DNA from: a phage
DNA length: 48,115 bases
Strand: one strand, 5' to 3'
Sequence record: PX962436.1
Shown: positions 6,777 to 48,115 of the stretch, piece after piece
How the letters are laid out: each line of letters opens with the position of its first letter
How positions within the stretch are numbered: the first letter of the stretch is position 1
Program-made: the position numbers and the translations under genes
The notes under the pieces: generated by a model
Told to the model about the DNA's origin: nothing
The model's input: the letters and a program-made list of their open reading frames with translations, nothing else
Database searches by the model: none

Positions 6777-6777
6777 G

Positions 6778-7230: not shown

Positions 7231-7240
7231 TTTTTTGTTA

Positions 7241-8988: not shown

Positions 8989-9023
8989 TCGTAAATGCAC
9001 ATACTAAAGAACTTAACTAAACT

Positions 9024-12522: not shown

Positions 12523-13590
12523 CCCTGTCGTGGCCGTTATCACCAGTAGCGGCCACAAACTATTCCACACAATATCCAGACTCGCATCCTTCAAATAAAT
12601 CTGCTTGGTAATGTCCGTAAAGTGGCGAATAGGGTTAATCCACGTCAGGTTTTGCAGCCAAACTGGCATGTTTTCCACCGGCGAAACGTAACCGGAAAGG
12701 AGAATGGCGGGCATCATAAAGACAAACACGCCGATAAACGCCTGCTGTTGTGTCGAGCAGAGTGATGAAATCAACAGACCGAATCCCACCAGCGATAAAC
12801 CGTAAATCACCATCGTAAAGTAGAACAGCGCCAGCGATCCGGCGAAGGGGATTTGATACGCCCAGATACCAATCGCCAGCACAATGGTGGCCTGGAAGGT
12901 GGCGACAATTAACGCCGGTACGGCTTTGCCGATGAAGATCTGCCAGGTGGTGAGCGGCGAAACCAGTAGCTGATCGAGCGTACCTTGTTCACGTTCGCGG
13001 GCGACGGAAAGTGAAGTGACGATCATTACGCCGATAGTGGTGATCATGGCGATCAGCGACGGCACCACAAACCATTTGTAGTCGAGATTCGGGTTATACC
13101 AGTTGCGTACTACCAGCTCGCTGTTGTTAGGTTTCGGTTTTCCTTCCAGCAGCTCCTGCTGATAATTTTTGACGATCTGTTGCAGGTAGTTGGCGGCAAT
13201 TTGCGCACTGTTGGAGTTACGCCCGTCGAGGATCAACTGCAACGGCGCGGTCTGGAAGGTATCCAGTTTGCGCGAGAAGTCAGCCGGGAAACGCACCAGG
13301 AGTAACGCCTTTTGTGTGTCGATGGTCGGGCGGATCTCCTGTGGGCTTTTCAGCAGCAGCACATGTGTAAAGGCGCTGGCGCGGGCAAAACGTTGAGTAA
13401 GTTCCACCGAATGCTCGCCGTTATCTTCATCGTAGATGGCGATGGTGGCGTTAGTCACTTCCAGCGTGGCGGCGAACGGGAACAGGATCACCTGAATTAG
13501 CACGGGTAAAATCAGAATCGCGCGGGTTTGTGGTTCGCGCAGCAACGACTGCAACTCTTTGCGGATTAACGTCCATAAGCGATGAAACAT
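12484..13590 (-). CDS. ybhR: ABC-2 type transporter permease
   Basis: 368 aa polytopic ORF, ybhFSR operon. Confidence 0.85.
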
Positions 13591-13600
13591 GCTCTTCTCC

Positions 13601-14734
13601 CTAATCCAGCCGACGTTTGGTTTTCAGCCACGTCAGGCCGATAAACATCACCGCCGAAGCGATCAAAAACAGCACGTTTACCACCAGCACCACTGGAATA
13701 TTCCCGGCGAGGAACAGGCTTTGCAGGGTGCTGACGAAATAACGAGCGGGAATAATGTACGTCACCGCGCGGATCACCGCGGGCATACTGTCGATCTGAA
13801 AAATAAAGCCGGAAAGCATAATCGACGGCAGAAAAGCCGCGTTCAGAGCGACCTGAGCGGCATTGAACTGGTTGCGGGTTATCGTGGAAATCAGCAGCCC
13901 CATCCCCAGGGTACTGAGTAAAAACAGGCTGGAGATAAAAAACAGAATCAGCAGCGACCCGCGATACGGCACGCCGAGAATAAACACTGACACCAGCATA
14001 CACAGCAACATCGCCAGCATCCCGAGAAAGTAATAAGGGATCAGCTTACACAGCAGCAGTTCCGTGCGGGTAATCTCCGTAGAGAGCAGAGCCTCCATGG
14101 TGCCGCGTTCCCATTCTCGCGCCACCACCAGCGAGGTGAGAATCGCGCCGATGACCGTCATGATGATGGTCACCGCACCCGGGATAATAAAGTGCTGGCT
14201 TATCGCCGCCGGGTTAAACCAGTAGCGGGTTTGTACATCAATAAGCGGTTCAAAAGTCTGCCCGTTGTCCTCCGCTCGCTGCATTTGCCAGATCTGCCAG
14301 ATCCCTTCGACATACCCCTGCACAAAGTTAGCGGTATTCGGCTCACTGCCGTCGGTGATCACCTGAATCGGTGCGGTGGCGTTGGCGCGCTCCATCTGTT
14401 CCGCAAAATCCACCGGAATAACCACCAGACCGCGAATTTTCCCCGCCTGCATTTTGGCGATCAGTTCCTGACGGTTATCGCTGATGGTGGCGTCGATGTA
14501 GGGCGAACCGGTCATGGTGTGGGTGAAATCCAGCGCCGCTTCGCTACGCTGTTCCAGTAAAATCCCGACCCGCAGCTTGCTGGAGTCGAGGTTAATGCCG
14601 TAACCAAAAATAAACAGCAGTAGCAGCGGGATCACTACCGCAATCAGCCAGCTACTCGGATCGCGAACGATCTGCCGCGTCTCTTTAACGCACAGCGCCC
14701 GTACGCGACGCCAGGACAGGATCGGGTTACTCAT
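13601..14734 (-). CDS. ybhS: ABC-2 type transporter permease
   Basis: 377 aa polytopic ORF, ybhFSR operon. Confidence 0.85.
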
Positions 14735-15725
14735 TGCTATGCTCCTTATCCCAGTCGTGGATCAACTGAATAAAGGCTTGCTCCATGGTGGGATCGGGTT
14801 GCTCGTCGTTGGCCGACTGCGCTTTCAAATCATCCGGCGTGCCGCTGGCAATTAATTTCCCACGGTACACCAGGCCGATGCGGTCGCAATATTCTGCTTC
14901 ATCCATAAAGTGAGTGGTGACCATCACCGTGACGCCTTTCTCTACCATGCTGTTGATATGCAGCCAAAATTCGCGGCGGGTGAGGGGATCAACGCCGGAC
15001 GTTGGTTCGTCGAGAAACAGAATGTCCGGTTCATGCATCAGCGAACAGGCCAGCGCCAGCCGCTGTTTAAAACCTAATGGCAGTTCATCGGTCGCGTGGG
15101 AGGCGATACTTTTCAGGCCAAATGCCTCGCTCATACGGGAGATTTTTTCGTTCTGCGCCCGACCGCGTAAGCCATACACACCAGAGAAAAAGCGTAAATT
15201 CTGTTCGACCGTCAGGTTGCCGTAGAGCGAAAATTTTTGCGCCATATAGCCGAGATGCTGGCGCGCTTTACCGGAACTCTCTTTCAGATCCATCCCCAGC
15301 ACCAGCGCCTGGCCGGAAGTCGGCACCAGCAAACCGCACATCATCTTAAAGGTGGTCGATTTACCCGCGCCGTTTGGCCCCAGCAAACCAAAAATCTCCC
15401 CACGTTTAACGGCAAAGTTGACGTGATCGGTGGCGGCAAAATCACCAAATTTCTTGGTCAGTTCTTTCGCTTCGATCACCGTCTCGCCGGGTGTGCCTTC
15501 TACCGTATGCAATATTGCACCCAGCGGCGATTCTGAGGTTCCGGCACCACCCAGCAAATCAATAAACGCATCTTCAAAACGCGGCGTAGTTTCGTTGATG
15601 TTGATTTCCGGCATCCCGTCGGCATGGCGAATATCGTCTGGTGTGGCCTCTTTTTTGAGGATCAGACGTACCGATTTCCCCTGAATCATGCCGTCGCTGA
15701 CCTGCGGCAGTTTCAAGGCGCGGTG
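14727..15725 (-). pseudogene. ybhF: 5'-truncated ABC transporter ATPase: only the second ABC domain and linker remain; the 5' limit is approximate
   Basis: Minus-strand translation has one complete ABC domain (Walker A GPNGAGKST, signature, Walker B) preceded by the C-terminal tail of a first domain (FEDAFIDLLGG); the rest of the 523-codon ORF (15730..16298) is antisense to the methylase. Confidence 0.75.
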
Positions 15726-15729
15726 AAAC

Positions 15730-16655
15730 CCAACGGTTGGGACAATCAGTGGAAAGGGGACGAAGATTACCTGAAGTGGCTGGACCACTGTCTGGCTCAG
15801 TTCTGGCGGGTGCTGAAACCTGCCGGAAGCCTTTACCTGTTCTGTGGACATCGCCTCGCATCTGATATCGAGATCATGATGCGTGAACGTTTCAACGTTC
15901 TTAACCATATTATCTGGGCGAAGCCGTCCGGACGATGGAACGGGTGTAATAAAGAAAGTCTGCGCGCATATTTTCCCGCAACAGAACGCGTTCTGTTTGC
16001 TGAACATTACCAGGGACCATATCGCGGCAAAAGTGACGGCTATGCGGCAAAAGAAAGTCAACTCAAACAGCACATAATGGCACCGCTGATTTCGTATTTC
16101 AGGGATGCTCGTGCCGAACTGGGTATAACGGCAAAACAGATTGCCGAAGCCACTGGTAAGAAAAATATGGTTTCCCACTGGTTTGGTGCCAGTCAGTGGC
16201 AGTTGCCGAATGAGGCTGACTACCGGAAGTTGCAGGCACTGTTTTCCCGTATAGCGGCAGAGAAATTTCAGGAACAACAACTGGAACAACCACACCACCA
16301 GCTGGTGGCATCTTATGATTCACTGAATCGCAAATATTCTGAATTGCTGGATGAGTTTAAAACTCTCCGGCGCTATTTCTCCGTATCAGTTTCCGTGCCT
16401 TATACCGACGTCTGGACGCATAAACCCGTTCAGTTCTACCCGGGTAAACATCCGTGTGAGAAGCCCGCGGATATGCTCCGGCAAATAATCAGTGCCAGTA
16501 GTCGACAAGGCGATCTGGTTGCTGATTTCTTTATGGGATCCGGTTCCACAATAAAAGCGGCAATGGCGCTGGGGCGTCGGGCGTTAGGTGTTGAACTTGA
16601 GTCAGAGCGGTTTAATCAGACGGTGAAAGAGGTAAGTGAACTGGTGGGGAAATAA
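15730..16655 (+). pseudogene. phage N6-adenine/N4-cytosine DNA methyltransferase, 5'-truncated at the host-phage junction
   Basis: C-terminal FxGxG motif (DFFMGSGST) and W-rich region (GWDNQWKGDEDYLKWL) are present, but the DPPY catalytic motif expected just upstream is replaced by ybhF antisense sequence. Confidence 0.6.
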
Positions 16656-16731
16656 TTCTGGTGGCCACGTTGCGTGGCCTTTTTATTTCCAACACAGCAC
16701 CCGCAAATATCGCGAGGTGAGAGATGACGAA

Positions 16732-17067
16732 ATGCCTCATAACCCAAATACCTGGCCGGACTGGCTGGAGTTGTTTCAGAGCTGGTGGCGTGGAGATACG
16801 CCGCTGGGCGCAGTGATTATGTCGATTGTTATGGCTGGTTTGCGCATCGCCTATTTTGGCGGTGGTGGTGGCTGGAAGCGAAAAACGCTCGAGATTTTGC
16901 TATGTGGCGCTCTGACGTTGACCTTTGCATCCGCGCTTGAGTATGTCGGATGGCCTAAATCGCTTTCTGTTGCCATTGGTGGTGGGGTGGGGCTGATCGG
17001 TGTCGATGCTATTCGTGGGGCTGCAATGAGAGTAATCGGTAACAAGTTTGGTAGCTCGAAGGAGTAA
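16732..17067 (+). CDS. phage holin (not lambda S), about 112 aa with three predicted transmembrane segments
   Basis: Sits immediately upstream of the endolysin; hydrophobic segments and a GGGGG loop; GAGGTGA SD-like sequence before ATG 16732; the ORF-track start at 16636 overlaps the methylase end. Confidence 0.6.
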   Translation: MPHNPNTWPDWLELFQSWWRGDTPLGAVIMSIVMAGLRIAYFGGGGGWKRKTLEILLCGALTLTFASALEYVGWPKSLSVAIGGGVGLIGVDAIRGAAMRVIGNKFGSSKE

Positions 17068-17070
17068 TTT

Positions 17071-17547
17071 ATGCAGGTACTAAATTCCCAGCGTAAAGCT
17101 TTCCTGGATATGGTTGCATGGTCAGAAGGAACTGATAACGGACGTCAGAAAACCAGAAATCATGGTTATGACGTCATTGTAGGCGGAGAGCTATTCACTG
17201 ATTACTCCGATCACCCTCGCAAACTTGTCACGCTAAACCCAAAACTCAAATCAACAGGCGCCGGACGCTACCAGCTTCTTTCCCGTTGGTGGGATGCCTA
17301 CCGCAAGCAGCTTGGCCTGAAAGACTTCTCTCCGAAAAGTCAGGACGCTGTGGCATTGCAGCAGATTAAGGAGCGTGGCGCTTTACCTATGATTGATCGT
17401 GGTGATATCCGTCAGGCAATCGACCGTTGCAGCAATATCTGGGCTTCACTGCCGGGCGCTGGTTATGGTCAGTTCGAGCATAAGGCTGACAGCCTGATTG
17501 CAAAATTCAAAGAAGCGGGCGGAACGGTCAGAGAGATTGATGTATGA
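17071..17547 (+). CDS. R: endolysin (lambda R-type lytic transglycosylase); the first ~15 codons are non-lambda, the remainder matches lambda R
   Basis: Translation matches lambda R from QRKAFLDM to the end, but the N-terminus reads MQVLNS (lambda: MVEINN) and residue 15 is V (lambda: L). Confidence 0.9.
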
Positions 17548-20815: not shown

Positions 20816-24496
<3,681 letters not shown>

Positions 24497-24516
<20 letters not shown>

Positions 24517-25816
24517 TCTCCCGCATATTGCCAGCATGGCCTTTAATGAGCCGCTGATGCTTGAACCCGCCTATGCGCGGGTTTTCTTTTGTGCGCTTGC
24601 AGGCCAGCTTGGGATCAGCAGCCTGACGGATGCGGTGTCCGGCGACAGCCTGACTGCCCAGGAGGCACTCGCGACGCTGGCATTATCCGGTGATGATGAC
24701 GGACCACGACAGGCCCGCAGTTATCAGGTCATGAACGGCATCGCCGTGCTGCCGGTGTCCGGCACGCTGGTCAGCCGGACGCGGGCGCTGCAGCCGTACT
24801 CGGGGATGACCGGTTACAACGGCATTATCGCCCGTCTGCAACAGGCTGCCAGCGATCCGATGGTGGACGGCATTCTGCTCGATATGGACACGCCCGGCGG
24901 GATGGTGGCGGGGGCATTTGACTGCGCTGACATCATCGCCCGTGTGCGTGACATAAAACCGGTATGGGCGCTTGCCAACGACATGAACTGCAGTGCAGGT
25001 CAGTTGCTTGCCAGTGCCGCCTCCCGGCGTCTGGTCACGCAGACCGCCCGGACAGGCTCCATCGGCGTCATGATGGCTCACAGTAATTACGGTGCTGCGC
25101 TGGAGAAACAGGGTGTGGAAATCACGCTGATTTACAGCGGCAGCCATAAGGTGGATGGCAACCCCTACAGCCATCTTCCGGATGACGTCCGGGAGACACT
25201 GCAGTCCCGGATGGACGCAACCCGCCAGATGTTTGCGCAGAAGGTGTCGGCATATACCGGCCTGTCCGTGCAGGTTGTGCTGGATACCGAGGCTGCAGTG
25301 TACAGCGGTCAGGAGGCCATTGATGCCGGACTGGCTGATGAACTTGTTAACAGCACCGATGCGATCACCGTCATGCGTGATGCACTGGATGCACGTAAAT
25401 CCCGTCTCTCAGGAGGGCGAATGACCAAAGAGACTCAATCAACAACTGTTTCAGCCACTGCTTCGCAGGCTGACGTTACTGACGTGGTGCCAGCGACGGA
25501 GGGCGAGAACGCCAGCGCGGCGCAGCCGGACGTGAACGCGCAGATCACCGCAGCGGTTGCGGCAGAAAACAGCCGCATTATGGGGATACTCAACTGTGAG
25601 GAGGCTCACGGACGCGAAGAACAGGCACGCGTGCTGGCAGAAACCCCCGGTATGACCGTGAAAACGGCCCGCCGCATTCTGGCCGCAGCACCACAGAGTG
25701 CACAGGCGCGCAGTGACACTGCGCTGGATCGTCTGATGCAGGGGGCACCGGCACCGCTGGCTGCAGGTAACCCGGCATCTGATGCCGTTAACGATTTGCT
25801 GAACACACCAGTGTAA
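24497..25816 (+). CDS. C: head maturation protease/scaffold C (GTG start)
   Basis: 439 codons from GTG 24497 (MTAELRNLPHIASMAF); the ORF-track start at 24362 is an upstream extension. Confidence 0.85.
25211..25816 (+). CDS. Nu3: scaffolding protein Nu3, in-frame internal start within C
   Basis: Met at C codon 239, at the lambda Nu3 map position. Confidence 0.7.
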   Translation: MDATRQMFAQKVSAYTGLSVQVVLDTEAAVYSGQEAIDAGLADELVNSTDAITVMRDALDARKSRLSGGRMTKETQSTTVSATASQADVTDVVPATEGENASAAQPDVNAQITAAVAAENSRIMGILNCEEAHGREEQARVLAETPGMTVKTARRILAAAPQSAQARSDTALDRLMQGAPAPLAAGNPASDAVNDLLNTPV

Positions 25817-25825
25817 GGGATGTTT

Positions 25826-26158
25826 ATGACGAGCAAAGAAACCTTTACCCATTACCAGCCGCAGGGCAACAGTGACCCGGCTCATACCGCAACCGCGCCC
25901 GGCGGATTGAGTGCGAAAGCGCCTGCAATGACCCCGCTGATGCTGGACACCTCCAGCCGTAAGCTGGTTGCGTGGGATGGCACCACCGACGGTGCTGCCG
26001 TTGGCATTCTTGCGGTTGCTGCTGACCAGACCAGCACCACGCTGACGTTCTACAAGTCCGGCACGTTCCGTTATGAGGATGTGCTCTGGCCGGAGGCTGC
26101 CAGCGACGAGACGAAAAAACGGACCGCGTTTGCCGGAACGGCAATCAGCATCGTTTAA
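25826..26158 (+). CDS. D: head decoration protein D
   Basis: 110 aa, [20 protein letters not shown]. Confidence 0.9.
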
Positions 26159-26213
26159 CTTTACCCTTCATCACTAAAGGCCGCCTGTGCGGCTTTTTTT
26201 ACGGGATTTTTTT

Positions 26214-27239
26214 ATGTCGATGTACACAACCGCCCAACTGCTGGCGGCAAATGAGCAGAAATTTAAGTTTGATCCGCTGTTTCTGCGTCTCTTTTTCCGT
26301 GAGAGCTATCCCTTCACCACGGAGAAAGTCTATCTCTCACAAATTCCGGGACTGGTAAACATGGCGCTGTACGTTTCGCCGATTGTTTCCGGTGAGGTTA
26401 TCCGTTCCCGTGGCGGCTCCACCTCTGAATTTACGCCGGGATATGTCAAGCCGAAGCATGAAGTGAATCCGCAGATGACCCTGCGTCGCCTGCCGGATGA
26501 AGATCCGCAGAATCTGGCGGACCCGGCTTACCGCCGCCGTCGCATCATCATGCAGAACATGCGTGACGAAGAGCTGGCCATTGCTCAGGTCGAAGAGATG
26601 CAGGCAGTTTCTGCCGTGCTTAAGGGCAAATACACCATGACCGGTGAAGCCTTCGATCCGGTTGAGGTGGATATGGGCCGCAGTGAGGAGAATAACATCA
26701 CGCAGTCCGGCGGCACGGAGTGGAGCAAGCGTGACAAGTCCACGTATGACCCGACCGACGATATCGAAGCCTACGCGCTGAACGCCAGCGGTGTGGTGAA
26801 TATCATCGTGTTCGATCCGAAAGGCTGGGCGCTGTTCCGTTCCTTCAAAGCCGTCAAGGAGAAGCTGGATACCCGTCGTGGCTCTAATTCCGAGCTGGAG
26901 ACAGCGGTGAAAGACCTGGGCAAAGCGGTGTCCTATAAGGGGATGTATGGCGATGTGGCCATCGTCGTGTATTCCGGACAGTACGTGGAAAACGGCGTCA
27001 AAAAGAACTTCCTGCCGGACAACACGATGGTGCTGGGGAACACTCAGGCACGCGGTCTGCGCACCTATGGCTGCATTCAGGATGCGGACGCACAGCGCGA
27101 AGGCATTAACGCCTCTGCCCGTTACCCGAAAAACTGGGTGACCACCGGCGATCCGGCGCGTGAGTTCACCATGATTCAGTCAGCACCGCTGATGCTGCTG
27201 GCTGACCCTGATGAGTTCGTGTCCGTACAACTGGCGTAA
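26214..27239 (+). CDS. E: major capsid protein E
   Basis: 341 aa from MSMYTTAQLLAANEQ. Confidence 0.9.
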   Translation: MSMYTTAQLLAANEQKFKFDPLFLRLFFRESYPFTTEKVYLSQIPGLVNMALYVSPIVSGEVIRSRGGSTSEFTPGYVKPKHEVNPQMTLRRLPDEDPQNLADPAYRRRRIIMQNMRDEELAIAQVEEMQAVSAVLKGKYTMTGEAFDPVEVDMGRSEENNITQSGGTEWSKRDKSTYDPTDDIEAYALNASGVVNIIVFDPKGWALFRSFKAVKEKLDTRRGSNSELETAVKDLGKAVSYKGMYGDVAIVVYSGQYVENGVKKNFLPDNTMVLGNTQARGLRTYGCIQDADAQREGINASARYPKNWVTTGDPAREFTMIQSAPLMLLADPDEFVSVQLA

Positions 27240-27280
27240 TCATGGCCCTTCGGGGCCATTGTTTCTCTGTGGAGGAGTCC

Positions 27281-27679
27281 ATGACGAAAGATGAACTGAT
27301 TGCCCGTCTCCGCTCGCTGGGTGAACAACTGAACCGTGATGTCAGCCTGACGGGGACGAAAGAAGAACTGGCGCTCCGTGTGGCAGAGCTGAAAGAGGAG
27401 CTTGATGACACGGATGAAACTGCCGGTCAGGACACCCCTCTCAGCCGGGAAAATGTGCTGACCGGACATGAAAATGAGGTGGGATCAGCGCAGCCGGATA
27501 CCGTGATTCTGGATACGTCTGAACTGGTCACGGTCGTGGCACTGGTGAAGCTGCATACTGATGCACTTCACGCCACGCGGGATGAACCTGTGGCATTTGT
27601 GCTGCCGGGAACGGCGTTTCGTGTCTCTGCCGGTGTGGCAGCCGAAATGACAGAGCGCGGCCTGGCCAGAATGCAATAA
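27281..27679 (+). CDS. FI: DNA packaging protein FI
   Basis: 132 aa from MTKDELIARL. Confidence 0.85.
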   Translation: MTKDELIARLRSLGEQLNRDVSLTGTKEELALRVAELKEELDDTDETAGQDTPLSRENVLTGHENEVGSAQPDTVILDTSELVTVVALVKLHTDALHATRDEPVAFVLPGTAFRVSAGVAAEMTERGLARMQ

Positions 27680-27690
27680 CGGGAGGCGCT

Positions 27691-28044
27691 GTGGCTGATT
27701 TCGATAACCTGTTCGATGCTGCCATTGCCCGCGCCGATGAAACGATACGCGGGTACATGGGAACGTCAGCCACCATTACATCCGGTGAGCAGTCAGGTGC
27801 GGTGATACGTGGTGTTTTTGATGACCCTGAAAATATCAGCTATGCCGGACAGGGCGTGCGCGTTGAAGGCTCCAGCCCGTCCCTGTTTGTCCGGACTGAT
27901 GAGGTGCGGCAGCTGCGGCGTGGAGACACGCTGACCATCGGTGAGGAAAATTTCTGGGTAGATCGGGTTTCGCCGGATGATGGCGGAAGTTGTCATCTCT
28001 GGCTTGGACGGGGCGTACCGCCTGCCGTTAACCGTCGCCGCTGA
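27691..28044 (+). CDS. FII: head-tail connector FII
   Basis: 117 aa lambda FII. Confidence 0.9.
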   Translation: MADFDNLFDAAIARADETIRGYMGTSATITSGEQSGAVIRGVFDDPENISYAGQGVRVEGSSPSLFVRTDEVRQLRRGDTLTIGEENFWVDRVSPDDGGSCHLWLGRGVPPAVNRRR

Positions 28045-39723: not shown

Positions 39724-40935
39724 GTGAATATGGCAGTAAAGATTTCAGGAGTCCTGAAAGACGGCACAGGAAAACCGGTACAGAACTGCACCATTCAGCT
39801 GAAAGCCAGACGTAACAGCACCACGGTGGTGGTGAACACGGTGGGCTCAGAGAATCCGGATGAAGCCGGGCGTTACAGCATGGATGTGGAGTACGGTCAG
39901 TACAGTGTCATCCTGCAGGTTGACGGTTTTCCACCATCGCACGCCGGGACCATCACCGTGTATGAAGATTCACAACCGGGGACGCTGAATGATTTTCTCT
40001 GTGCCATGACGGAGGATGATGCCCGGCCGGAGGTGCTGCGTCGTCTTGAACTGATGGTGGAAGAGGTGGCGCGTAACGCGTCCGTGGTGGCACAGAGTAC
40101 GGCAGACGCGAAGAAATCAGCCGGCGATGCCAGTGCATCAGCTGCTCAGGTCGCGGCCCTTGTGACTGATGCAACTGACTCAGCACGCGCCGCCAGCACG
40201 TCCGCCGGACAGGCTGCATCGTCAGCTCAGGAAGCGTCCTCCGGCGCAGAAGCGGCATCAGCAAAGGCCACTGAAGCGGAAAAAAGTGCCGCAGCCGCAG
40301 AGTCCTCAAAAAACGCGGCGGCCACCAGTGCCGGTGCGGCGAAAACGTCAGAAACGAATGCTGCAGCGTCACAACAATCAGCCGCCACGTCTGCCTCCAC
40401 CGCGGCCACGAAAGCGTCAGAGGCCGCCACTTCAGCACGAGATGCGGTGGCCTCAAAAGAGGCAGCAAAATCATCAGAAACGAACGCATCATCAAGTGCC
40501 GGTCGTGCAGCTTCCTCGGCAACGGCGGCAGAAAATTCTGCCAGGGCGGCAAAAACGTCCGAGACGAATGCCAGGTCATCTGAAACAGCAGCGGAACGGA
40601 GCGCCTCTGCCGCGGCAGACGCAAAAACAGCGGCGGCGGGGAGTGCGTCAACGGCATCCACGAAGGCGACAGAGGCTGCGGGAAGTGCGGTATCAGCATC
40701 GCAGAGCAAAAGTGCGGCAGAAGCGGCGGCAATACGTGCAGAAAATTCGGCAAAACGTGCAGAAGATATAGCTTCAGCTGTCGCGCTTGAGGATGCGGAC
40801 ACAACGAGAAAGGGGATAGTGCAGCTCAGCAGTGCAACCAACAGCACGTCTGAAACGCTTGCTGCAACGCCAAAGGCGGTTAAGGTGGTAATGGATGAAA
40901 CGAACAGAAAAGCCCACTGGACAGTCCGGCACTGA
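39724..40935 (+). CDS. stf: side tail fibre protein, N-terminal reading frame (lambda orf-401)
   Basis: 403 aa with Ala/Ser-rich repeats; terminates at TGA 40933-40935 while the tail-fibre sequence continues in another frame. Confidence 0.85.
   Translation: MNMAVKISGVLKDGTGKPVQNCTIQLKARRNSTTVVVNTVGSENPDEAGRYSMDVEYGQYSVILQVDGFPPSHAGTITVYEDSQPGTLNDFLCAMTEDDARPEVLRRLELMVEEVARNASVVAQSTADAKKSAGDASASAAQVAALVTDATDSARAASTSAGQAASSAQEASSGAEAASAKATEAEKSAAAAESSKNAAATSAGAAKTSETNAAASQQSAATSASTAATKASEAATSARDAVASKEAAKSSETNASSSAGRAASSATAAENSARAAKTSETNARSSETAAERSASAAADAKTAAAGSASTASTKATEAAGSAVSASQSKSAAEAAAIRAENSAKRAEDIASAVALEDADTTRKGIVQLSSATNSTSETLAATPKAVKVVMDETNRKAHWTVRH
40230..40640 (+). repeat. imperfect tandem coding repeats within stf (AAKTSETNA-type units)
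   Basis: Recurrent AAKTSETNA / AAKSSETNA / AAKTSETNA peptide units; this also generates long spurious ORFs in other frames. Confidence 0.6.
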
Positions 40936-41311
40936 CCGGAACGCCAACAGCACCAACCGCGCTCAGGGGAACAAACAATACCCAGATTGCGAACACCGCT
41001 TTTGTACTGGCCGCGATTGCAGATGTTATCGACGCGTCACCTGACGCACTGAATACGCTGAATGAACTGGCCGCAGCGCTCGGGAATGATCCAGATTTTG
41101 CTACCACCATGACTAACGCGCTTGCGGGTAAACAACCGAAGAATGCGACACTGACGGCGCTGGCAGGGCTTTCCACGGCGAAAAATAAATTACCGTATTT
41201 TGCGGAAAATGATGCCGCCAGCCTGACTGAACTGACTCAGGTTGGCAGGGATATTCTGGCAAAAAATTCCGTTGCAGATGTTCTTGAATACCTTGGGGCC
41301 GGTGAGAATTC
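40847..41311 (+). pseudogene. stf: side tail fibre second frame (lambda orf-314), 3'-truncated at the EcoRI deletion junction; start approximate
   Basis: Frame continuing TGTPTAPTALRGTNNTQIANTAFVLAAIAD...EYLGAGENS, then unrelated sequence after GAATTC. Confidence 0.75.
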
Positions 41312-42175
41312 TAAGCGGAGATCGCCTAGTGATTTTAAACTATTGCTGGCAGCATTCTTGAGTCCAATATAAAAGTATTGTGTACCTTTTGCTGGGTCAG
41401 GTTGTTCTTTAGGAGGAGTAAAAGGATCAAATGCACTAAACGAAACTGAAACAAGCGATCGAAAATATCCCTTTGGGATTCTTGACTCGATAAGTCTATT
41501 ATTTTCAGAGAAAAAATATTCATTGTTTTCTGGGTTGGTGATTGCACCAATCATTCCATTCAAAATTGTTGTTTTACCACACCCATTCCGCCCGATAAAA
41601 GCATGAATGTTCGTGCTGGGCATAGAATTAACCGTCACCTCAAAAGGTATAGTTAAATCACTGAATCCGGGAGCACTTTTTCTATTAAATGAAAAGTGGA
41701 AATCTGACAATTCTGGCAAACCATTTAACACACGTGCGAACTGTCCATGAATTTCTGAAAGAGTTACCCCTCTAAGTAATGAGGTGTTAAGGACGCTTTC
41801 ATTTTCAATGTCGGCTAATCGATTTGGCCATACTACTAAATCCTGAATAGCTTTAAGAAGGTTATGTTTAAAACCATCGCTTAATTTGCTGAGATTAACA
41901 TAGTAGTCAATGCTTTCACCTAAGGAAAAAAACATTTCAGGGAGTTGACTGAATTTTTTATCTATTAATGAATAAGTGCTTACTTCTTCTTTTTGACCTA
42001 CAAAACCAATTTTAACATTTCCGATATCGCATTTTTCACCATGCTCATCAAAGACAGTAAGATAAAACATTGTAACAAAGGAATAGTCATTCCAACCATC
42101 TGCTCGTAGGAATGCCTTATTTTTTTCTACTGCAGGAATATACCCGCCTCTTTCAATAACACTAAACTCCAACAT
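41237..42175 (-). pseudogene. ea59: ea59 N-terminal fragment (about 290 codons, P-loop ATPase with Walker A GRNGCGKTT) fused to a 22-codon out-of-context tail
   Basis: Minus-strand ORF starting MLEFSVIERGGYIP; lambda-derived part ends at the EcoRI site (…GDLRLEF), after which the ORF reads antisense stf to a stop. Confidence 0.75.
41306..41311. other. deletion junction at a single EcoRI site (lambda EcoRI-B fragment, 21226..26104, absent)
   Basis: GAATTC sits at the lambda 21226 position by map offset; sequence to its right is antisense ea59, which begins at lambda 26104. Confidence 0.8.
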
Positions 42176-42679
42176 ATAGTAACCCTTAATTTTATTAAAA
42201 TAACCGCAATTTATTTGGCGGCAACACAGGATCTCTCTTTTAAGTTACTCTCTATTACATACGTTTTCCATCTAAAAATTAGTAGTATTGAACTTAACGG
42301 GGCATCGTATTGTAGTTTTCCATATTTAGCTTTCTGCTTCCTTTTGGATAACCCACTGTTATTCATGTTGCATGGTGCACTGTTTATACCAACGATATAG
42401 TCTATTAATGCATATATAGTATCGCCGAACGATTAGCTCTTCAGGCTTCTGAAGAAGCGTTTCAAGTACTAATAAGCCGATAGATAGCCACGGACTTCGT
42501 AGCCATTTTTCATAAGTGTTAACTTCCGCTCCTCGCTCATAACAGACATTCACTACAGTTATGGCGGAAAGGTATGCATGCTGGGTGTGGGGAAGTCGTG
42601 AAAGAAAAGAAGTCAGCTGCGTCGTTTGACATCACTGCTATCTTCTTACTGGTTATGCAGGTCGTAGTGGGTGGCACAC

Positions 42680-42775
42680 AAAGCTTTGCACTGGATTGCG
42701 AGGCTTTGTGCTTCTCTGGAGTGCGACAGGTTTGATGACAAAAAATTAGCGCAAGAAGACAAAAATCACCTTGCG
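42680..42775 (-). terminator. lambda sib/tI retroregulator region with an intrinsic terminator hairpin (leftward transcripts)
   Basis: On the minus strand, stem AGCGCAAGGTGATTTTTGTCTTCTTGCGCT followed by AATTTTTTG; located at the lambda b-side of att. Confidence 0.5.
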
Positions 42776-42779
42776 CTAA

Positions 42780-42925
42780 TGCTCTGTTACAGGTCACTAA
42801 TACCATCTAAGTAGTTGATTCATAGTGACTGCATATGTTGTGTTTTACAGTATTATGTAGTCTGTTTTTTATGCAAAATCTAATTTAATATATTGATATT
42901 TATATCATTTTACGTTTCTCGTTCA
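42780..42925. promoter_or_regulatory. attP P-arm (Int arm-type P1/P2, IHF, Xis and Fis binding region)
   Basis: CTCTGTTACAGGTCACTAATACCATCTAAGTAGTTGATTCATAGTGACTGCATATG...TTTACGTTTCTCGTTCA matches the lambda P-arm. Confidence 0.85.
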
Positions 42926-42940
42926 GCTTTTTTATACTAA
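42926..42940. other. attR core (phage P-arm / bacterial B'-arm junction), common core GCTTTTTTATACTAA
   Basis: 15-bp att core flanked on the left by lambda P-arm and on the right by chromosomal TTGAGCGAAACG leading to ybhB. Confidence 0.85.
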
Positions 42941-43030
42941 TTTGAGCGAAACGGGAAGGTAAAAAGACAAAAAGTTGTTTTTAATACCTTTAAGTGATAC
43001 CAGATGGCATTGCGCCATCTGGCAGAGTGA

Positions 43031-43507
43031 TTAACTAAACATCGCAGTAATCGAGGCGCTTGCCAGAGAGTGGAAATGAACGTTAAACCCGACCATCGCG
43101 CCGCTGGCACCTTCATCGACATCAATACGTTCTATATCCAGCGCGTGAACGGTAAAAATGTAGCGATGAGTTTCGCCTTTCGGCGGTGCTGCGCCATCGT
43201 ACCCGGTTTTACCAAAGTCGGTACGCGTCTGCAAAACGCCGTCTGGCATTGCTACCAGACCAGAGCCAAACCCTTGCGGTAATACGCGGGTATCAGCGGG
43301 TAAGTTAACAACTACCCAGTGCCACCAGCCGGAGCCGGTTGGCGCATCCGGGTCGTAGCAGGTGACAACAAAACTTTTCGTTCCCGCAGGAACATCATCC
43401 CACGCCAGATGCGGTGAAATATTATCGCCATCGTAACCCATGCCGTTAAAGACATGACGATGCGGCAATTTATCGCCATCGCGCAGATCGTTACTGATGA
43501 GTTTCAT
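43031..43507 (-). CDS. ybhB: PEBP/YbhB family protein
   Basis: 158 aa ORF at the K-12 position between attB and bioA. Confidence 0.9.
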   Translation of the reverse strand: MKLISNDLRDGDKLPHRHVFNGMGYDGDNISPHLAWDDVPAGTKSFVVTCYDPDAPTGSGWWHWVVVNLPADTRVLPQGFGSGLVAMPDGVLQTRTDFGKTGYDGAAPPKGETHRYIFTVHALDIERIDVDEGASGAMVGFNVHFHSLASASITAMFS

Positions 43508-43565
43508 GAACCCTCCTTTCTTGTTTGCAGAAAGTGTAGCCAGAAACCCTCACGCGGACTTCTCG

Positions 43566-44855
43566 TTATTGGCAAAAAAATGTTTCATCCTGTACCGCGC
43601 GGTTAACCGCTGCGGTCAGACGCTGCAACTGTTGCGGGAGAATAATATAGGGCGGCATCAGGTAAATCAGTTTGCCAAAAGGCCGGATCCAGACACCCTG
43701 TTCGACAAAGAATTTTTGCAGCGCCGCCATATTCACCGGACGAGTGGTTTCGACTACGCCGATTGCCCCCAGCACGCGCACATCGGCAACCATTTCGGCA
43801 TCACGGGCGGGGGCAAGTTGCTCGCGCAGCTGTACTTCAATAGCCGCCACCTGTTGCTGCCAGTCGCCAGATTCGAGAATCGCCAGGCTGGCGTTTGCTG
43901 CCGCGCAGGCCAGCGGATTGCCCATAAAAGTTGGCCCATGCATAAAGCAGCCGGCTTCGCCGTTACTGATGGTTTCTGCAACCTCGCGCGTGGTAAGTGT
44001 GGCGGAAAGGGTCATTGTGCCGCCGGTTAAGGCTTTACCGAGGCACAAAATGTCCGGCGCGATTTCTGCATATTCACAGGCAAACAGTTTGCCGGTACGA
44101 CCAAATCCGGTGGCGATCTCGTCGGCAATCAGCAAGATACCTTCGCGATCGCACATTTTGCGGATTCGTTTTAACCATTCCGGATGGTACATGCGCATCC
44201 CGCCTGCGCCCTGGACAATCGGCTCAATGATCACCGCCGCGATTTCATGACGATGCGCCGCCATCAGGCGGGCAAAGCCCACCATATCGCGCTCATCCCA
44301 TTCGCCATCCATGCGGCTTTGCGGGGCGGGAGCAAACAGGTTTTCTGGCAGGTAGCCTTTCCACAGACTGTGCATTGAGTTATCCGGATCGCACACCGAC
44401 ATCGCGCCAAAGGTATCGCCATGATAACCATTGCGGAAGGTCAGAAAACGCTGGCGCGCTTCGCCTTTGGCTTGCCAGTACTGCAACGCCATTTTCATCG
44501 CCACTTCCACCGCTACGGAACCGGAGTCCGCGAGAAAAACGCACTCCAGCGGTTGCGGCGTCATCGCCACCAGTTTGCGGCACAGCTCAATGGCTGGCGC
44601 ATGGGTGATACCGCCAAACATCACATGCGACATGGCATCAATTTGCGACTTCATCGCCGCATTAAGCTGCGGGTGATTGTAGCCGTGGATCGCCGCCCAC
44701 CAGGACGACATACCGTCAACCAGGCGTCTGCCGTCAGACAAAATCAGCTCGCAACCTTCGGCGCTCACCACCGGATAAACCGGCAGAGGGGAGGTCATGG
44801 ATGTGTATGGGTGCCAGATATGGCGTTGGTCAAAGGCAAGATCGTCCGTTGTCAT
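43566..44855 (-). CDS. bioA: adenosylmethionine-8-amino-7-oxononanoate aminotransferase (429 aa)
   Basis: Start at [20 protein letters not shown]; the ORF-track start at 44966 is an upstream extension running through the bio operator. Confidence 0.9.
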
Positions 44856-44862
44856 AATCGAC

Positions 44863-44896
44863 TTGTAAACCAAATTGAAAAGATTTAGGTTTACAA
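44863..44896. promoter_or_regulatory. bio operator (BirA binding palindrome) between divergent bioA and bioBFCD promoters
   Basis: TTGTAAACCAAATTGAAAAGATTTAGGTTTACAA imperfect palindrome. Confidence 0.8.
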
Positions 44897-44941
44897 GTCT
44901 ACACCGAATTAACAACAAAAAACACGTTTTGGAGAAGCCCC

Positions 44942-45982
44942 ATGGCTCACCGCCCACGCTGGACATTGTCGCAAGTCACAGAATTATTTGAAAAACCGTT
45001 GCTGGATCTGCTGTTTGAAGCGCAGCAGGTGCATCGCCAGCATTTCGATCCTCGTCAGGTGCAGGTCAGCACGTTGCTGTCGATTAAGACCGGAGCTTGT
45101 CCGGAAGATTGCAAATACTGCCCGCAAAGCTCGCGCTACAAAACCGGGCTGGAAGCCGAGCGGTTGATGGAAGTTGAACAGGTGCTGGAGTCGGCGCGCA
45201 AAGCGAAAGCGGCAGGATCGACGCGCTTCTGTATGGGCGCGGCGTGGAAGAATCCCCACGAACGCGATATGCCGTACCTGGAACAAATGGTGCAGGGGGT
45301 AAAAGCGATGGGGCTGGAGGCGTGTATGACGCTGGGCACGTTGAGTGAATCTCAGGCGCAGCGCCTCGCGAACGCCGGGCTGGATTACTACAACCACAAC
45401 CTGGACACCTCGCCGGAGTTTTACGGCAATATCATCACCACACGCACTTATCAGGAACGCCTCGATACGCTGGAAAAAGTGCGCGATGCCGGGATCAAAG
45501 TCTGTTCTGGCGGCATTGTGGGCTTAGGCGAAACGGTAAAAGATCGCGCCGGATTATTGCTGCAACTGGCAAACCTGCCGACGCCGCCGGAAAGCGTGCC
45601 AATCAACATGCTGGTGAAGGTGAAAGGCACGCCGCTTGCCGATAACGATGATGTCGATGCCTTTGATTTTATTCGCACCATTGCGGTCGCGCGGATCATG
45701 ATGCCAACCTCTTACGTGCGCCTTTCTGCCGGACGCGAGCAGATGAACGAACAGACTCAGGCGATGTGCTTTATGGCAGGCGCAAACTCGATTTTCTACG
45801 GTTGCAAACTGCTGACCACGCCGAATCCGGAAGAAGATAAAGACCTGCAACTGTTCCGCAAACTGGGGCTAAATCCGCAGCAAACTGCCGTGCTGGCGGG
45901 CGATAACGAACAACAGCAGCGTCTGGAACAGGCACTGATGACCCCGGACACTGACGAATATTACAACGCGGCAGCACTATGA
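44942..45982 (+). CDS. bioB: biotin synthase (radical SAM)
   Basis: 346 aa, CPEDCKYC motif. Confidence 0.95.
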
Positions 45983-47133
45983 GCTGGCAGGATAAAATCA
46001 ACGCGGCCCTCGATGCGCGGCGTGCTGCCGATGCCCTGCGTCGCCGTTATCCAGTGGCGCAAGGAGCAGGACGCTGGCTGGTGGCGGACGATCGCCAGTA
46101 TCTGAACTTTTCCAGTAACGATTATTTAGGTTTAAGCCATCATCCGCAAATTATCCGTGCCTGGAAGCAGAGTGCGGAGCAATTTGGCGTCGGTAGCGGC
46201 GGCTCCGGTCACGTCAGCGGTTATAGCGTGGCACATCAGGCGCTGGAAGAAGAACTGGCCGAGTGGCTGGGCTATTCGCGGGCACTGCTGTTTATCTCTG
46301 GTTTTGCCGCTAATCAGGCGGTCATTGCCGCGATGATGGCGAAAGAGGACCGTATTGTTGCCGACCGGCTTAGCCATGCCTCATTGCTGGAGGCTGCCAG
46401 TTTAAGCCCGTCGCAGCTTCGCCGTTTTGTTCATAACGATGTCACTCATCTGGCGCGACTGCTTGCTTCCCCCTGTCCGGGGCAGCAAATGGTGGTGACA
46501 GAAGGCGTGTTCAGCATGGACGGCGATAGTGCGCCACTGGCGGAAATCCAGCAGGTAACGCAACAGCACAATGGCTGGTTGATGGTCGATGATGCCCACG
46601 GCACGGGCGTTATCGGGGAGCAGGGGCGCGGCAGCTGCTGGCTGCAAAAGGTAAAACCAGAATTGCTGGTAGTGACTTTTGGCAAAGGATTTGGCGTCAG
46701 CGGGGCAGCGGTGCTTTGCTCCAGTACGGTGGCGGATTATCTGCTGCAATTCGCCCGCCACCTTATCTACAGCACCAGTATGCCGCCCGCTCAGGCGCAG
46801 GCATTACGTGCGTCGCTGGCGGTCATTCGCAGTGATGAGGGTGATGCACGGCGCGAAAAACTGGCGGCACTCATTACGCGTTTTCGTGCCGGAGTACAGG
46901 ATTTGCCGTTTACGCTTGCTGATTCATGCAGCGCCATCCAGCCATTGATTGTCGGTGATAACAGCCGTGCGTTACAACTGGCAGAAAAACTGCGCCAGCA
47001 AGGCTGCTGGGTCACGGCGATTCGCCCGCCAACCGTACCCGCTGGTACTGCGCGACTGCGCTTAACGCTAACCGCTGCGCATGAAATGCAGGATATCGAC
47101 CGTCTGCTGGAGGTGCTGCATGGCAACGGTTAA
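45979..47133 (+). CDS. bioF: 8-amino-7-oxononanoate synthase
   Basis: 384 aa PLP-dependent enzyme. Confidence 0.95.
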
Positions 47134-47875
47134 TAAACAAGCCATTGCAGCGGCATTTGGTCGGGCAGCCGCACACTATGAGCAACATGCAGATCTACAG
47201 CGCCAGAGTGCTGACGCCTTACTGGCAATGCTTCCACAGCGTAAATACACCCACGTACTGGACGCGGGTTGTGGACCTGGCTGGATGAGCCGCCACTGGC
47301 GGGAACGTCACGCGCAGGTGACGGCCTTAGATCTCTCGCCGCCAATGCTTGTTCAGGCACGCCAGAAGGATGCCGCAGACCATTATCTGGCGGGAGATAT
47401 CGAATCCCTGCCGTTAGCGACTGCGACGTTCGATCTTGCATGGAGCAATCTCGCAGTGCAGTGGTGCGGTAATTTATCCACGGCACTCCGCGAGCTGTAT
47501 CGGGTGGTGCGCCCCAAAGGCGTGGTCGCGTTTACCACGCTGGTGCAGGGATCGTTACCCGAACTGCATCAGGCGTGGCAGGCGGTGGACGAGCGTCCGC
47601 ATGCTAATCGCTTTTTACCGCCAGATGAAATCGAACAGTCGCTGAACGGCGTGCATTATCAACATCATATTCAGCCCATCACGCTGTGGTTTGATGATGC
47701 GCTCAGTGCCATGCGTTCGCTGAAAGGCATCGGTGCCACGCATCTTCATGAAGGGCGCGACCCGCGAATATTAACGCGTTCGCAGTTGCAGCGATTGCAA
47801 CTGGCCTGGCCGCAACAGCAGGGGCGATATCCTCTGACGTATCATCTTTTTTTGGGAGTGATTGCTCGTGAGTAA
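47120..47875 (+). CDS. bioC: malonyl-ACP O-methyltransferase (251 aa)
   Basis: Start at [17 protein letters not shown]; SAM-MTase motif LDAGCGPG. Confidence 0.9.
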
Positions 47876-48115
47876 ACGTTATTTTGTCACCGGAACGGAT
47901 ACCGAAGTGGGGAAAACTGTCGCCAGTTGTGCACTTTTACAAGCCGCAAAGGCAGCAGGCTACCGGACGGCAGGTTATAAACCGGTCGCCTCTGGCAGCG
48001 AAAAGACCCCGGAAGGTTTACGCAATAGCGACGCGCTGGCGTTACAGCGCAACAGCAGCCTGCAGCTGGATTACGCAACAGTAAATCCTTACACCTTCGC
48101 AGAACCCACTTCGCC
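47868..48115 (+). CDS. bioD: dethiobiotin synthetase, 5' portion (GTG start, 82 codons); continues at window position 1
   Basis: [17 protein letters not shown]... through YTFAEPTSP at the window end. Confidence 0.9.

What the first reader, a model, noticed from the sequence alone, without database searches (positions are those of the whole stretch)
41237..42175. Precise deletion of the lambda EcoRI-B fragment leaves a chimeric, truncated ea59 P-loop ATPase and a truncated stf
A single GAATTC at 41306 maps to lambda 21226, and the sequence beyond it begins at lambda 26104, so 4,878 bp between two EcoRI sites is missing. This is a restriction-site-precise deletion typical of lambda cloning vectors. 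It removes tfa, ea47, ea31 and the 3' half of ea59. It leaves about 290 codons of Ea59 (Walker A GRNGCGKTT) fused to 22 codons of antisense stf. Whether this orphaned ATPase domain is expressed or active is unknown.
Basis: partly seen in the sequence, partly recalled or inferred. Interest (0 to 1): 0.6.

Follow-up and report, generated by a model that had tools for sequence, protein, structure and literature searches.

The report
Engineered EcoRI deletion scar in DE3
This is the well-known, already annotated scar of a test-tube deletion (lambda EcoRI sites 1 and 2 joined) carried by the DE3 prophage of the laboratory strain BL21(DE3); it leaves a dead front half of the lambda ea59 ATPase gene and is of no biological novelty.

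Summary
The single GAATTC at window 41306-41311 joins lambda 21226 to lambda 26104, and 4,878 bp are missing. ORF 41237-42175 (-) encodes Ea59 residues 1-290 plus 22 residues read from antisense orf-314 (stf).

The sequence is 100% identical to the DE3 prophage of E. coli BL21(DE3). GenBank EU078592 already annotates this exact ORF as "ea59 ... C-terminal extended due to deletion". The same junction is in 19 complete genomes, all named as BL21 or DE3 laboratory strains or their derivatives.

A second vector mark is a silent point mutation that destroys lambda's BamHI site at 5505. The deletion is therefore a laboratory artefact inherited from a lambda cloning vector.

The remnant is best read as a pseudogene:
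- It keeps Walker A but loses the only Walker B, the H-loop region and the C-terminal ATPase lobe.
- Its nuclease partner Ea31 is gone.
- It is cut off from pL by attR and sits behind the tI terminator.

Full-length Ea59/Ea31 match Septu-like defence models (PtuA; PDC-M01A/B), which is a useful side note but is not a property of this fragment.

Verdict: already known, low interest. One thing is unexplained: the window itself is a 48,115-bp circular-permuted chimera of DE3 late genes, 20.9 kb of host DNA and 1.4 kb of foreign prophage.

The parts
41306..41311 (.). Fusion EcoRI site (GAATTC) joining lambda 21226-21231 to lambda 26104-26109. It is the scar of the in vitro deletion of the 4,878-bp fragment between EcoRI sites 1 and 2.
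   Evidence: Identical in DE3 (EU078592, NC_042057), in phage DN1 and in 19 complete BL21/DE3-lineage laboratory genomes.
41237..42175 (-). ea59' is a truncated chimeric ORF of 312 aa. Residues 1-290 are Ea59 (N-terminal domain plus the Walker A lobe) and residues 291-312 are read from antisense orf-314. It is predicted to be a non-functional pseudogene.
   Evidence: for sequence and annotation. Searches show that only the N-terminal part of the ATPase profiles is covered.
41590..41613 (-). Walker A (P-loop) codons GRNGCGKT, Ea59 residues 195-202. This is the only catalytic motif retained.
   Evidence: motif position. Coordinates were computed from the ORF start at 42175.
41109..41372 (+). orf-314' is the truncated C-terminal stf segment. 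It has 68 native residues plus 19 residues read from antisense ea59. It converges on ea59' and overlaps it over 41237-41372.
   Evidence: (annotated "orf-314 ... C-terminal extended due to deletion").
39730..40935 (+). orf-401, the N-terminal stf segment. It is already separated from orf-314, as in the lambda reference sequence.
   Evidence: one mismatch to lambda, at window 40741.
42739..42781 (-). Lambda tI (sib) intrinsic terminator, a 12-bp G+C-rich stem followed by UUUUUU. It lies between attR/ybhB and the ea59' start. It would stop non-antiterminated transcripts coming from the host bioA-ybhB side.
   Evidence: fold; whole 171-nt stretch z = -3.45. One search gives the coordinates. One search shows phage O276 annotates "Transcription terminator tI" at the equivalent of window 42740-42779.
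42926..42940 (.). attR core (GCTTTTTTATACTAA). This is the prophage/host boundary. It separates ea59' from int-xis-pL, the route by which ea59 is transcribed in non-integrated lambda.
   Evidence: colinearity with lambda ends at 27738; ybhB and bioA follow.

Best explanation
The feature is the scar of a laboratory deletion. Lambda DNA was cut with EcoRI and religated without the 4,878-bp fragment between sites 1 and 2 (lambda 21226-26104), giving the classic srI-lambda(1-2) deletion used to make room in lambda cloning vectors and to remove restriction sites from them. The window carries the version of this backbone found in the DE3 prophage of E. coli BL21(DE3). By my recollection DE3 was built from the BamHI vector lambda D69.

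The deletion removes the C-terminal 246 codons of orf-314 (stf), all of tfa, ea47 and ea31, and Ea59 codons 291-525. What remains of ea59 is an open but dead gene fragment.

- It encodes the N-terminal domain and the Walker A half of a split ABC/SMC-type ATPase head. It lacks Walker B, the H-loop region and the C-terminal lobe needed to hydrolyse ATP. This is shown.
- It lacks its nuclease partner Ea31. This is shown.
- In the integrated state it cannot be reached by pL transcription. It is shielded from host read-through by the tI terminator, and it is crossed by convergent late transcription. These three points are inferred.

The fragment therefore does nothing. It is a pseudogene by-product of vector construction.
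For: - Breakpoints fall exactly on the two lambda EcoRI sites, with one regenerated GAATTC.
- The junction region is 100% identical to the DE3 records EU078592 and NC_042057 and to phage DN1. It is also identical in 19 complete E. coli genomes, all named as BL21 or DE3 laboratory strains or their derivatives.
- Lambda lysogens of K-12 match only from the EcoRI site onward and carry a full "AAA family ATPase".
- GenBank annotates the ORF at the same coordinates as "ea59 ... C-terminal extended due to deletion".
- A second engineering mark is present. Lambda BamHI 5505 GGATCC reads GGATAC at window 25588, a silent Ile codon change. The deleted fragment also held BamHI 22346 and HindIII 23130 and 25157. 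The DE3 record has only two BamHI sites, flanking the lacI-T7 insert, and one HindIII site.
- Walker A is at 195-202 and the sole Walker B, LVLFDE, is at 387-392 in the deleted part.
- Pfam AAA_21 and AAA_15 hits at residues 310-430 are lost in the fragment.
- The PADLOC PtuA model is covered 3-518/520 by full-length Ea59 but only 3-301/520 by the fragment.
- Alignment to solved PtuA chains places the Walker B and H-loop region at Ea59 382-472.
- Ea31 and the other deleted genes are absent from the whole window.
- The tI hairpin is upstream of ea59' and no sigma-70-like promoter is found on the - strand between attR and the start codon.
- Ea47, Ea31 and Ea59 are dispensable for lambda growth (PMC2966988; PMC10695390; PMC12318184).
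Against: - The lambda D69 pedigree could not be confirmed from the paper library. It rests on my recollection of Mizusawa & Ward 1982, Studier & Moffatt 1986 and Studier et al. 2009.
- The ORF keeps an intact start codon and a plausible ribosome-binding site (AAGGG upstream of the ATG at 42175). Translation of any stray transcript is therefore possible.
- Terminators are leaky, and no expression data were available.
- The window is not the complete DE3 prophage. lacI, T7 gene 1, imm21, O, P and Q are missing. The immediate source is therefore a DE3 derivative or a chimera.
Confidence: 0.96

Rival explanations
1. This is a spontaneous natural b-region deletion (like b2, b221, b515, b519 or b527) that arose in vivo by slippage or microhomology between the two GAATTC hexamers. 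It was not made in vitro.
For: Lambda's b region is dispensable and many spontaneous deletions of it are known. Phage O276, for example, carries b515 and b519, which truncate ea59 and ea47, and lambda gt10 carries b527 (PMC2966988). A 6-bp direct repeat at both ends is formally compatible with microhomology-mediated deletion.
Against: Both ends coincide exactly with neighbouring sites of one restriction enzyme. The named spontaneous deletions have other end points. The same backbone has a silent BamHI-site knock-out. The junction is seen only in the DE3 laboratory lineage among 5,426 E. coli genomes and 50,697 phage records.
Confidence: 0.02
2. The truncated Ea59 is a functional neo-protein. 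Its N-terminal domain plus P-loop is expressed in BL21(DE3), for example by read-through from bioA-ybhB. It binds ATP or a phage trigger and acts as a sensor, a decoy or a dominant-negative subunit.
For: The ORF is open, with its start codon and a Shine-Dalgarno-like AAGGG intact. The host genes bioA and ybhB are on the same strand upstream. The N-terminal ~127 residues appear to be a separable module: one PDC-M01A model starts at Ea59 residue 128, and residues 17-85 match the single-gene candidate PDC-S34.
Against: Walker B, the H-loop region and the whole C-terminal lobe are missing, so a split ABC-type head cannot be completed. The partner Ea31 is absent. The tI terminator lies between ybhB and the ORF and no promoter-like site is found. 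The 22-residue tail is random antisense sequence. There has been no selection, because the allele is about 50 years old and was made in vitro. No literature mentions the locus tag.
Confidence: 0.02
3. The junction is an assembly or sequencing artefact of this particular window, which is itself chimeric.
For: The window is a chimera with two unusual junctions elsewhere, at 15722 and at 17128-17132.
Against: The EcoRI junction is reproduced at 100% identity over 3.3 kb in 19 independently finished genomes and 3 phage records. It lies far from the chimeric junctions.
Confidence: 0

Closest known systems
DE3 prophage of E. coli BL21(DE3) (GenBank EU078592 / NC_042057; features ECD_10057 and ECD_10058)
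   Same: Window 17128-42925 is identical, with the same coordinates, including the EcoRI fusion site, ea59' (41237-42175) and orf-314' (41109-41372). The attR-ybhB-bioA context is the same.
   Different: The window lacks DE3 positions 1-17088 (attL, lacI, lacUV5-T7 gene 1, int', xis ... imm21 ... O, P, Q, S). In their place it has host DNA and a foreign methylase-holin segment.
Classical lambda EcoRI-fragment deletion vectors (srI-lambda 1-2 deletion; lambda gt-type vectors and, by my recollection, lambda D69)
   Same: The EcoRI fragment 21226-26104 is precisely removed and one site is regenerated. Unwanted BamHI and HindIII sites are removed along with it.
   Different: The identity of the vector parent could not be verified with the tools and rests on recollection. 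The other three lambda EcoRI sites are still present in the DE3 record, unlike lambda gt10, in which they were abolished (PMC2966988).
Other laboratory b-region deletions that truncate ea59 (b515 in phage O276; b527 in lambda gt10)
   Same: They also remove non-essential ea genes and leave a truncated ea59 next to tI and attP (PMC2966988).
   Different: They have different end points that are not at restriction sites, and a different extent. O276 loses 170 aa of Ea59, compared with 235 aa here.
Septu defence system PtuA/PtuB and PADLOC candidate system PDC-M01 (A = ABC-type ATPase, B = partner protein)
   Same: Full-length lambda Ea59 matches the PtuA model PDLC00282 end to end (E 5e-184) and PDC-M01A (E 4e-201). 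Ea31 matches PDC-M01B (E 6e-113). There are weak but specific sequence matches to solved retron and Septu PtuA chains. The window ORF matches the N-terminal ~300 positions of the same models.
   Different: The window ORF has lost positions ~300-520 of the models (Walker B and the C-terminal lobe), and the B gene is deleted. It is a fragment of a family member and not a working system. Anti-phage activity of lambda Ea59/Ea31 was not tested here and I found no paper showing it.
Phage DN1 (MF374379), a lambda-bio-type transducing phage from a BL21(DE3) lysate
   Same: It carries the same DE3 left arm, the same ea59' and orf-314' junction, attR and the adjacent bio-uvrB host DNA.
   Different: DN1 ends its host segment in moaA and rejoins DE3 in the imm21 region, so it keeps cI, cro, O, P and Q. 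The window continues to ybhF and rejoins through a foreign methylase-S-R' segment, with no replication or immunity genes.

Membership tests
DE3 / lambda srI(1-2)-deletion vector backbone | A single GAATTC joins lambda 21226 to lambda 26104, with 4,878 bp absent. | tested here: met
DE3 / lambda srI(1-2)-deletion vector backbone | Sequence identity with the deposited DE3 prophage across the junction and to attR-ybhB-bioA. | tested here: met
   100% over 2.6-3.3 kb. Window 17128-42925 is identical to EU078592.
DE3 / lambda srI(1-2)-deletion vector backbone | Other vector marks in the late arm, namely removal of the BamHI site at lambda 5505. | tested here: met
   GGATCC reads GGATAC at window 25588.
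DE3 / lambda srI(1-2)-deletion vector backbone | The lacI-lacUV5-T7 gene 1 insert in int, the imm21 substitution, and the O-P-Q early region. | tested here: not met
   Window 1-17088 has no similarity to DE3 1-17088. It is host DNA plus a foreign prophage segment. The window therefore holds only the late/right part of DE3.
DE3 / lambda srI(1-2)-deletion vector backbone | Documented descent from vector lambda D69. | not testable with these tools
   No paper was found in the library. This rests on recollection only.
Septu PtuA / PADLOC PDC-M01A ABC-type ATPase | Walker A P-loop. | tested here: met
   GRNGCGKT at residues 195-202. Weak AAA_23 and ABC_tran hits at 171-217.
Septu PtuA / PADLOC PDC-M01A ABC-type ATPase | Walker B, H-loop region and the C-terminal AAA_21/AAA_15 lobe. 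| tested here: not met
   LVLFDE 387-392 and the AAA_21/AAA_15 region 310-430 exist only in full-length Ea59. The fragment ends at residue 290.
Septu PtuA / PADLOC PDC-M01A ABC-type ATPase | End-to-end coverage of the family profile. | tested here: not met
   The fragment covers 3-301 of 520 (PtuA PDLC00282) and 2-294 of 510 (PDC-M01A). Full-length Ea59 covers 3-518 and 2-507.
Septu PtuA / PADLOC PDC-M01A ABC-type ATPase | An adjacent partner gene (PtuB / PDC-M01B; lambda Ea31). | tested here: not met
   No Ea31 similarity anywhere in the window. In lambda, Ea31 matches PDC-M01B and is named an HNH endonuclease in RefSeq. It has no Pfam or NCBIfam hit.
Septu PtuA / PADLOC PDC-M01A ABC-type ATPase | Demonstrated anti-phage activity. 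| not testable with these tools

The most novel reading that the evidence does not exclude
The 290-residue Ea59 N-terminal fragment (a separable N-terminal module plus the Walker A lobe of a Septu-like PtuA ATPase) is made at low level in BL21(DE3) through leaky read-through from bioA-ybhB across tI. It then has a biological effect, for example nucleotide or trigger binding, or poisoning of related PtuA-type oligomers, and so subtly alters phage sensitivity in the most widely used protein-expression strain.
Probability: 0.02. Interest if true: 0.3.

Novelty: already known. Interest (0 to 1): 0.05.

Why it matters
It matters very little as a discovery. The deletion is a roughly 50-year-old engineering step, it has been annotated in GenBank since the BL21(DE3) genome was deposited, and it lies in a region shown repeatedly to be dispensable.

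There are two small practical points.

1. Automated annotation calls the remnant "hypothetical protein", "P-loop NTPase" or "ATP-binding cassette domain-containing protein" in different BL21(DE3) assemblies. It should be flagged as a pseudogene.
2. Lambda's Ea59/Ea31 pair matches Septu-like defence models. DE3 lysogens therefore lack a candidate prophage-encoded defence module that wild-type lambda lysogens carry. This is worth remembering when BL21(DE3) is used as a host in phage-defence assays.

Tried and rejected
- I looked for papers documenting the D69-to-DE3 pedigree and the deletion. Nothing usable was in the library, so the pedigree is stated as recollection only.
- I looked for papers linking Ea59/Ea31 to Septu or to defence. 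None did. Only "ATP-dependent endonuclease, non-essential" was found.
- I searched for the locus tag and protein accessions in papers, hoping for expression data. There were no hits.
- Rfam found nothing in 40900-43700. The simple terminator scan missed tI, and it was found only by folding.
- NCBIfam gave only sub-threshold ABC-type hits.
- I tried to trace the window's source by scanning for the ybhF'|methylase junction 41-mer in viral, genome and metagenome contigs, and in the plasmid and phage collections. There was no match.
- The EcoRI-junction 32-mer is absent from IMG/VR viral contigs.
- I considered the natural-deletion, functional-neo-protein and assembly-artefact readings and rejected them (see the rival explanations).
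- I did not run the large protein searches or structure prediction. The answer would not change the verdict and the cost to shared resources was not justified.

Full report
**1. The observation**

The hexamer GAATTC occurs only twice in the 48,115-base window, at 1029 and at 41306. I fetched the lambda reference NC_001416 and compared it base by base.

- Window 20081-41311 is colinear with lambda 1-21231, with two mismatches and two single-base indels.
- Window 41306-42940 is colinear with lambda 26104-27738, with no difference.
- The two blocks share only the hexamer at 41306-41311.
- In this part of lambda the only EcoRI sites are at 21226 and 26104, so exactly 4,878 bp are missing.

ORF 41237-42175 on the minus strand is 312 codons. 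Its first 290 residues are identical to lambda Ea59, including the Walker A motif GRNGCGKT at 195-202. The last 22 residues are read from the antisense of orf-314. On the plus strand, orf-314 keeps 68 residues and gains 19.

tblastn and blastn find no trace in the whole window of Tfa (orf-194), Ea47, Ea31, the C-terminal 235 residues of Ea59 or the C-terminal 246 residues of orf-314.

**2. What it is**

The junction region (window 40300-42950) is 100% identical to the two deposited sequences of phage DE3 (EU078592, NC_042057) and to phage DN1, which was isolated from a BL21(DE3) lysate. With the adjoining host genes ybhB and bioA it is 100% identical to 19 complete E. coli genomes. All of them are named as BL21 or DE3 laboratory strains or their derivatives (BL21(DE3), BLR(DE3), C41, C43, Rosetta2, BL21 Star, Nico21, BAP1 and others). 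Lambda lysogens of K-12 match only from the EcoRI site onward and carry a full-length "AAA family ATPase".

The GenBank record of DE3 annotates CDS 41237..42175 (-) as [quoted passage not shown]. It annotates CDS 41109..41372 (+) as "orf-314 ... C-terminal extended due to deletion". These are the same coordinates as in the window. The finding is therefore already recorded in the public annotation.

**3. Why the deletion is a laboratory product**

- Both end points fall on neighbouring sites of one enzyme, with one site regenerated.
- The same late arm differs from reference lambda at only four positions. One of them, C5509A (window 25588), converts the BamHI site GGATCC at 5505 into GGATAC while leaving an Ile codon unchanged.
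- The deleted fragment contained lambda's BamHI site at 22346 and its HindIII sites at 23130 and 25157.
- The DE3 record has only two BamHI sites, both flanking the lacI-T7 RNA polymerase insert, and a single HindIII site.

This is the signature of a lambda cloning vector tailored for BamHI. From memory, DE3 was made by Studier and Moffatt (1986) in the BamHI vector lambda D69 of Mizusawa and Ward (1982), which carries the srI-lambda(1-2) deletion, imm21 and nin5. I could not confirm this in the paper library. PMC2966988 confirms the positions of lambda's EcoRI sites within ORF314, Ea59, exo, O and S, and confirms that Ea47, Ea31 and Ea59 are not needed for viability.

**4. What the remnant can and cannot do**

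Full-length Ea59 is a split ABC/SMC-type ATPase.

- Walker A is at 195-202.
- The only Walker B (LVLFDE) is at 387-392, followed by an H-loop-like ATHSP.
- Pfam AAA_21 and AAA_15 match residues 310-430.
- The best alignment to solved PtuA chains covers 382-472.

The breakpoint at residue 290 lies between the two lobes. The fragment therefore keeps the P-loop but cannot complete an active site.

In PADLOC, full-length Ea59 covers the Septu PtuA model PDLC00282 from 3 to 518 of 520 (E 5e-184) and PDC-M01A from 2 to 507 of 510. Ea31 covers PDC-M01B. The fragment stops at about position 300 of these models. The partner gene ea31 is deleted.

Expression is also unlikely, for four reasons.

- In free lambda, ea59 lies downstream of int and attP on the leftward strand, so it is read by N-antiterminated transcripts from pL (established lambda biology). 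In the integrated state attR (core at 42926-42940) separates it from pL.
- What lies upstream instead is the host bioA-ybhB operon on the same strand. Between that operon and the ea59' start codon sits a strong hairpin followed by a U-run at 42781-42739. The record of phage O276 annotates this as "Transcription terminator tI" at the equivalent position.
- No sigma-70-like promoter is predicted on that strand between attR and the start codon.
- Late transcription through stf' would run antisense across the ORF. This last point is inference.

The start codon and a Shine-Dalgarno-like AAGGG are intact, so trace translation cannot be excluded, and I found no expression data. I conclude with high confidence that ea59' is a pseudogene by-product of vector construction.

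**5. The stf side**

orf-401 and orf-314 are already separate reading frames in the lambda reference, and the window matches it apart from one mismatch at window 40741. By my recollection this split is the frameshift carried by laboratory lambda (PaPa). The deletion therefore truncates an already defective side-tail-fibre gene and removes its assembly factor tfa.

**6. Comparison with what is known**

The nearest relatives are the DE3 prophage itself (identical), the classical EcoRI-fragment deletion vectors, and other laboratory b-region deletions that truncate ea59. Examples are b515 in phage O276 and b527 in lambda gt10.

In terms of family, the parent protein belongs with Septu-like PtuA ATPases. 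The fragment fails three defining features: Walker B with the C-terminal lobe, full profile coverage, and a partner gene. It should not be filed as a working member.

Recent papers list ea59 as a non-essential "ATP-dependent endonuclease" (PMC10695390) and use lom-ea59 as a disposable cargo site (PMC12318184). I found no paper that tests Ea59/Ea31 as a defence system. That side question concerns wild-type lambda and not this window.

**7. Something unexpected about the window**

Only window 17089-42925 aligns to the DE3 record, at identical coordinates. All nine mismatches lie at 17091-17127, so identity is exact from 17128.

- Window 42926-48115 and then window 1-15721 are one continuous stretch of BL21(DE3) chromosome (791321 to about 812231). 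It contains attR, ybhB, bioABFCD, uvrB, ybhK, moaA-E, ybhL-S and a truncated ybhF. The stretch runs across the end and start of the window, so the sequence is circularly permuted.
- Window 15722-17132 is 100% identical to a lambdoid prophage of E. coli 14EC001. It carries a DNA methyltransferase lacking about 40 N-terminal codons, a holin and the first ~60 nt of R. This prophage segment is not found in BL21.
- The left junction shows no homology. The right junction is in register within R, inside a 5-nt interval.
- There is no lacI, T7 gene 1, int, xis, N, repressor, O, P or Q.
- Measured from cos (20081) the molecule is 48,115 bp, a size lambda can package.

This could be a defective transducing or recombinant molecule from a BL21(DE3) lysate, similar to phage DN1, or it could be a chimeric assembly. 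The junction sequence is absent from every collection I could scan. The exact coincidence with DE3 record coordinates is unexplained. None of this affects the finding, which lies 24 kb from the nearest odd junction.

**8. Verdict**

The feature is already known and annotated, its mechanism is an in vitro EcoRI deletion, and the leftover ATPase fragment is a dead remnant. Interest is low (0.05).

Noticed in passing
whole window; junctions at 48115/1, 15721/15722 and 17128-17132: The window is not a plain DE3 prophage. It is a circularly permuted 48,115-bp chimera of three parts: the DE3 late region (17128-42925, at the same coordinates as GenBank EU078592), 20.9 kb of contiguous BL21(DE3) chromosome (42926-48115 then 1-15721; attR to a truncated ybhF), and 1.4 kb of a foreign lambdoid prophage. 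It has no replication, immunity, int or T7 polymerase genes. Cos-to-cos length is 48,115 bp, which lambda can package. The source was not found in any collection. It could be a defective transducing particle, a recombinant or a chimeric assembly.
   Followed up: partly
window 15722-17132: This segment is 100% identical to a prophage of E. coli 14EC001 (NZ_CP024127). It carries a DNA methyltransferase missing its first ~40 codons, a lambda-family holin and the first ~60 nt of the endolysin gene R. It is joined without homology to host ybhF on the left. On the right it is joined in register to DE3 R, within a 5-nt interval.
   Followed up: yes
window 25588 (lambda 5509): A C-to-A change turns lambda's BamHI site at 5505 (GGATCC) into GGATAC. 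It is silent (ATC to ATA, Ile) in genes C and Nu3. It is a deliberate or selected restriction-site knock-out of the vector backbone.
   Followed up: yes
window 20218, 34346, 40741: These are the other differences from the lambda reference in the late arm: loss of G at lambda 138, an extra G at lambda 14266/14267, and A20661G inside orf-401.
   Followed up: no
window 42739-42781 (- strand): Lambda tI / sib terminator hairpin with a U-run. The simple terminator scan did not pick it up. It was recovered by folding, and phage O276 annotates it at the equivalent position.
   Followed up: yes
lambda NC_001416 24509-26973 (L002 6010-8474); not in the window: Wild-type lambda Ea59 and Ea31 match the PADLOC models for Septu PtuA and for the candidate two-gene system PDC-M01 (A and B) end to end. 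Ea59 residues 17-85 also match the single-gene candidate PDC-S34. Ea31 has no Pfam or NCBIfam hit, although RefSeq calls it an HNH endonuclease. I found no paper testing this pair as a defence system.
   Followed up: partly
window 3667: This is the single substitution relative to BL21(DE3) NC_012971.2 within the 20.9 kb of host DNA. By coordinate arithmetic it falls in ybhK.
   Followed up: no
window 4395-4539 (+) and 3089-3130 (-): Rfam finds the Moco (molybdenum cofactor) riboswitch upstream of moaA, and an ES036 (CssrF) sRNA match in the uvrB-ybhK intergenic region. Both are ordinary host features.
   Followed up: no
annotation column (BL21(DE3)-family genomes): The same 312-aa remnant is named inconsistently by automated annotation: "hypothetical protein", "P-loop NTPase family protein" and "ATP-binding cassette domain-containing protein". 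None flags it as a truncated gene.
   Followed up: no
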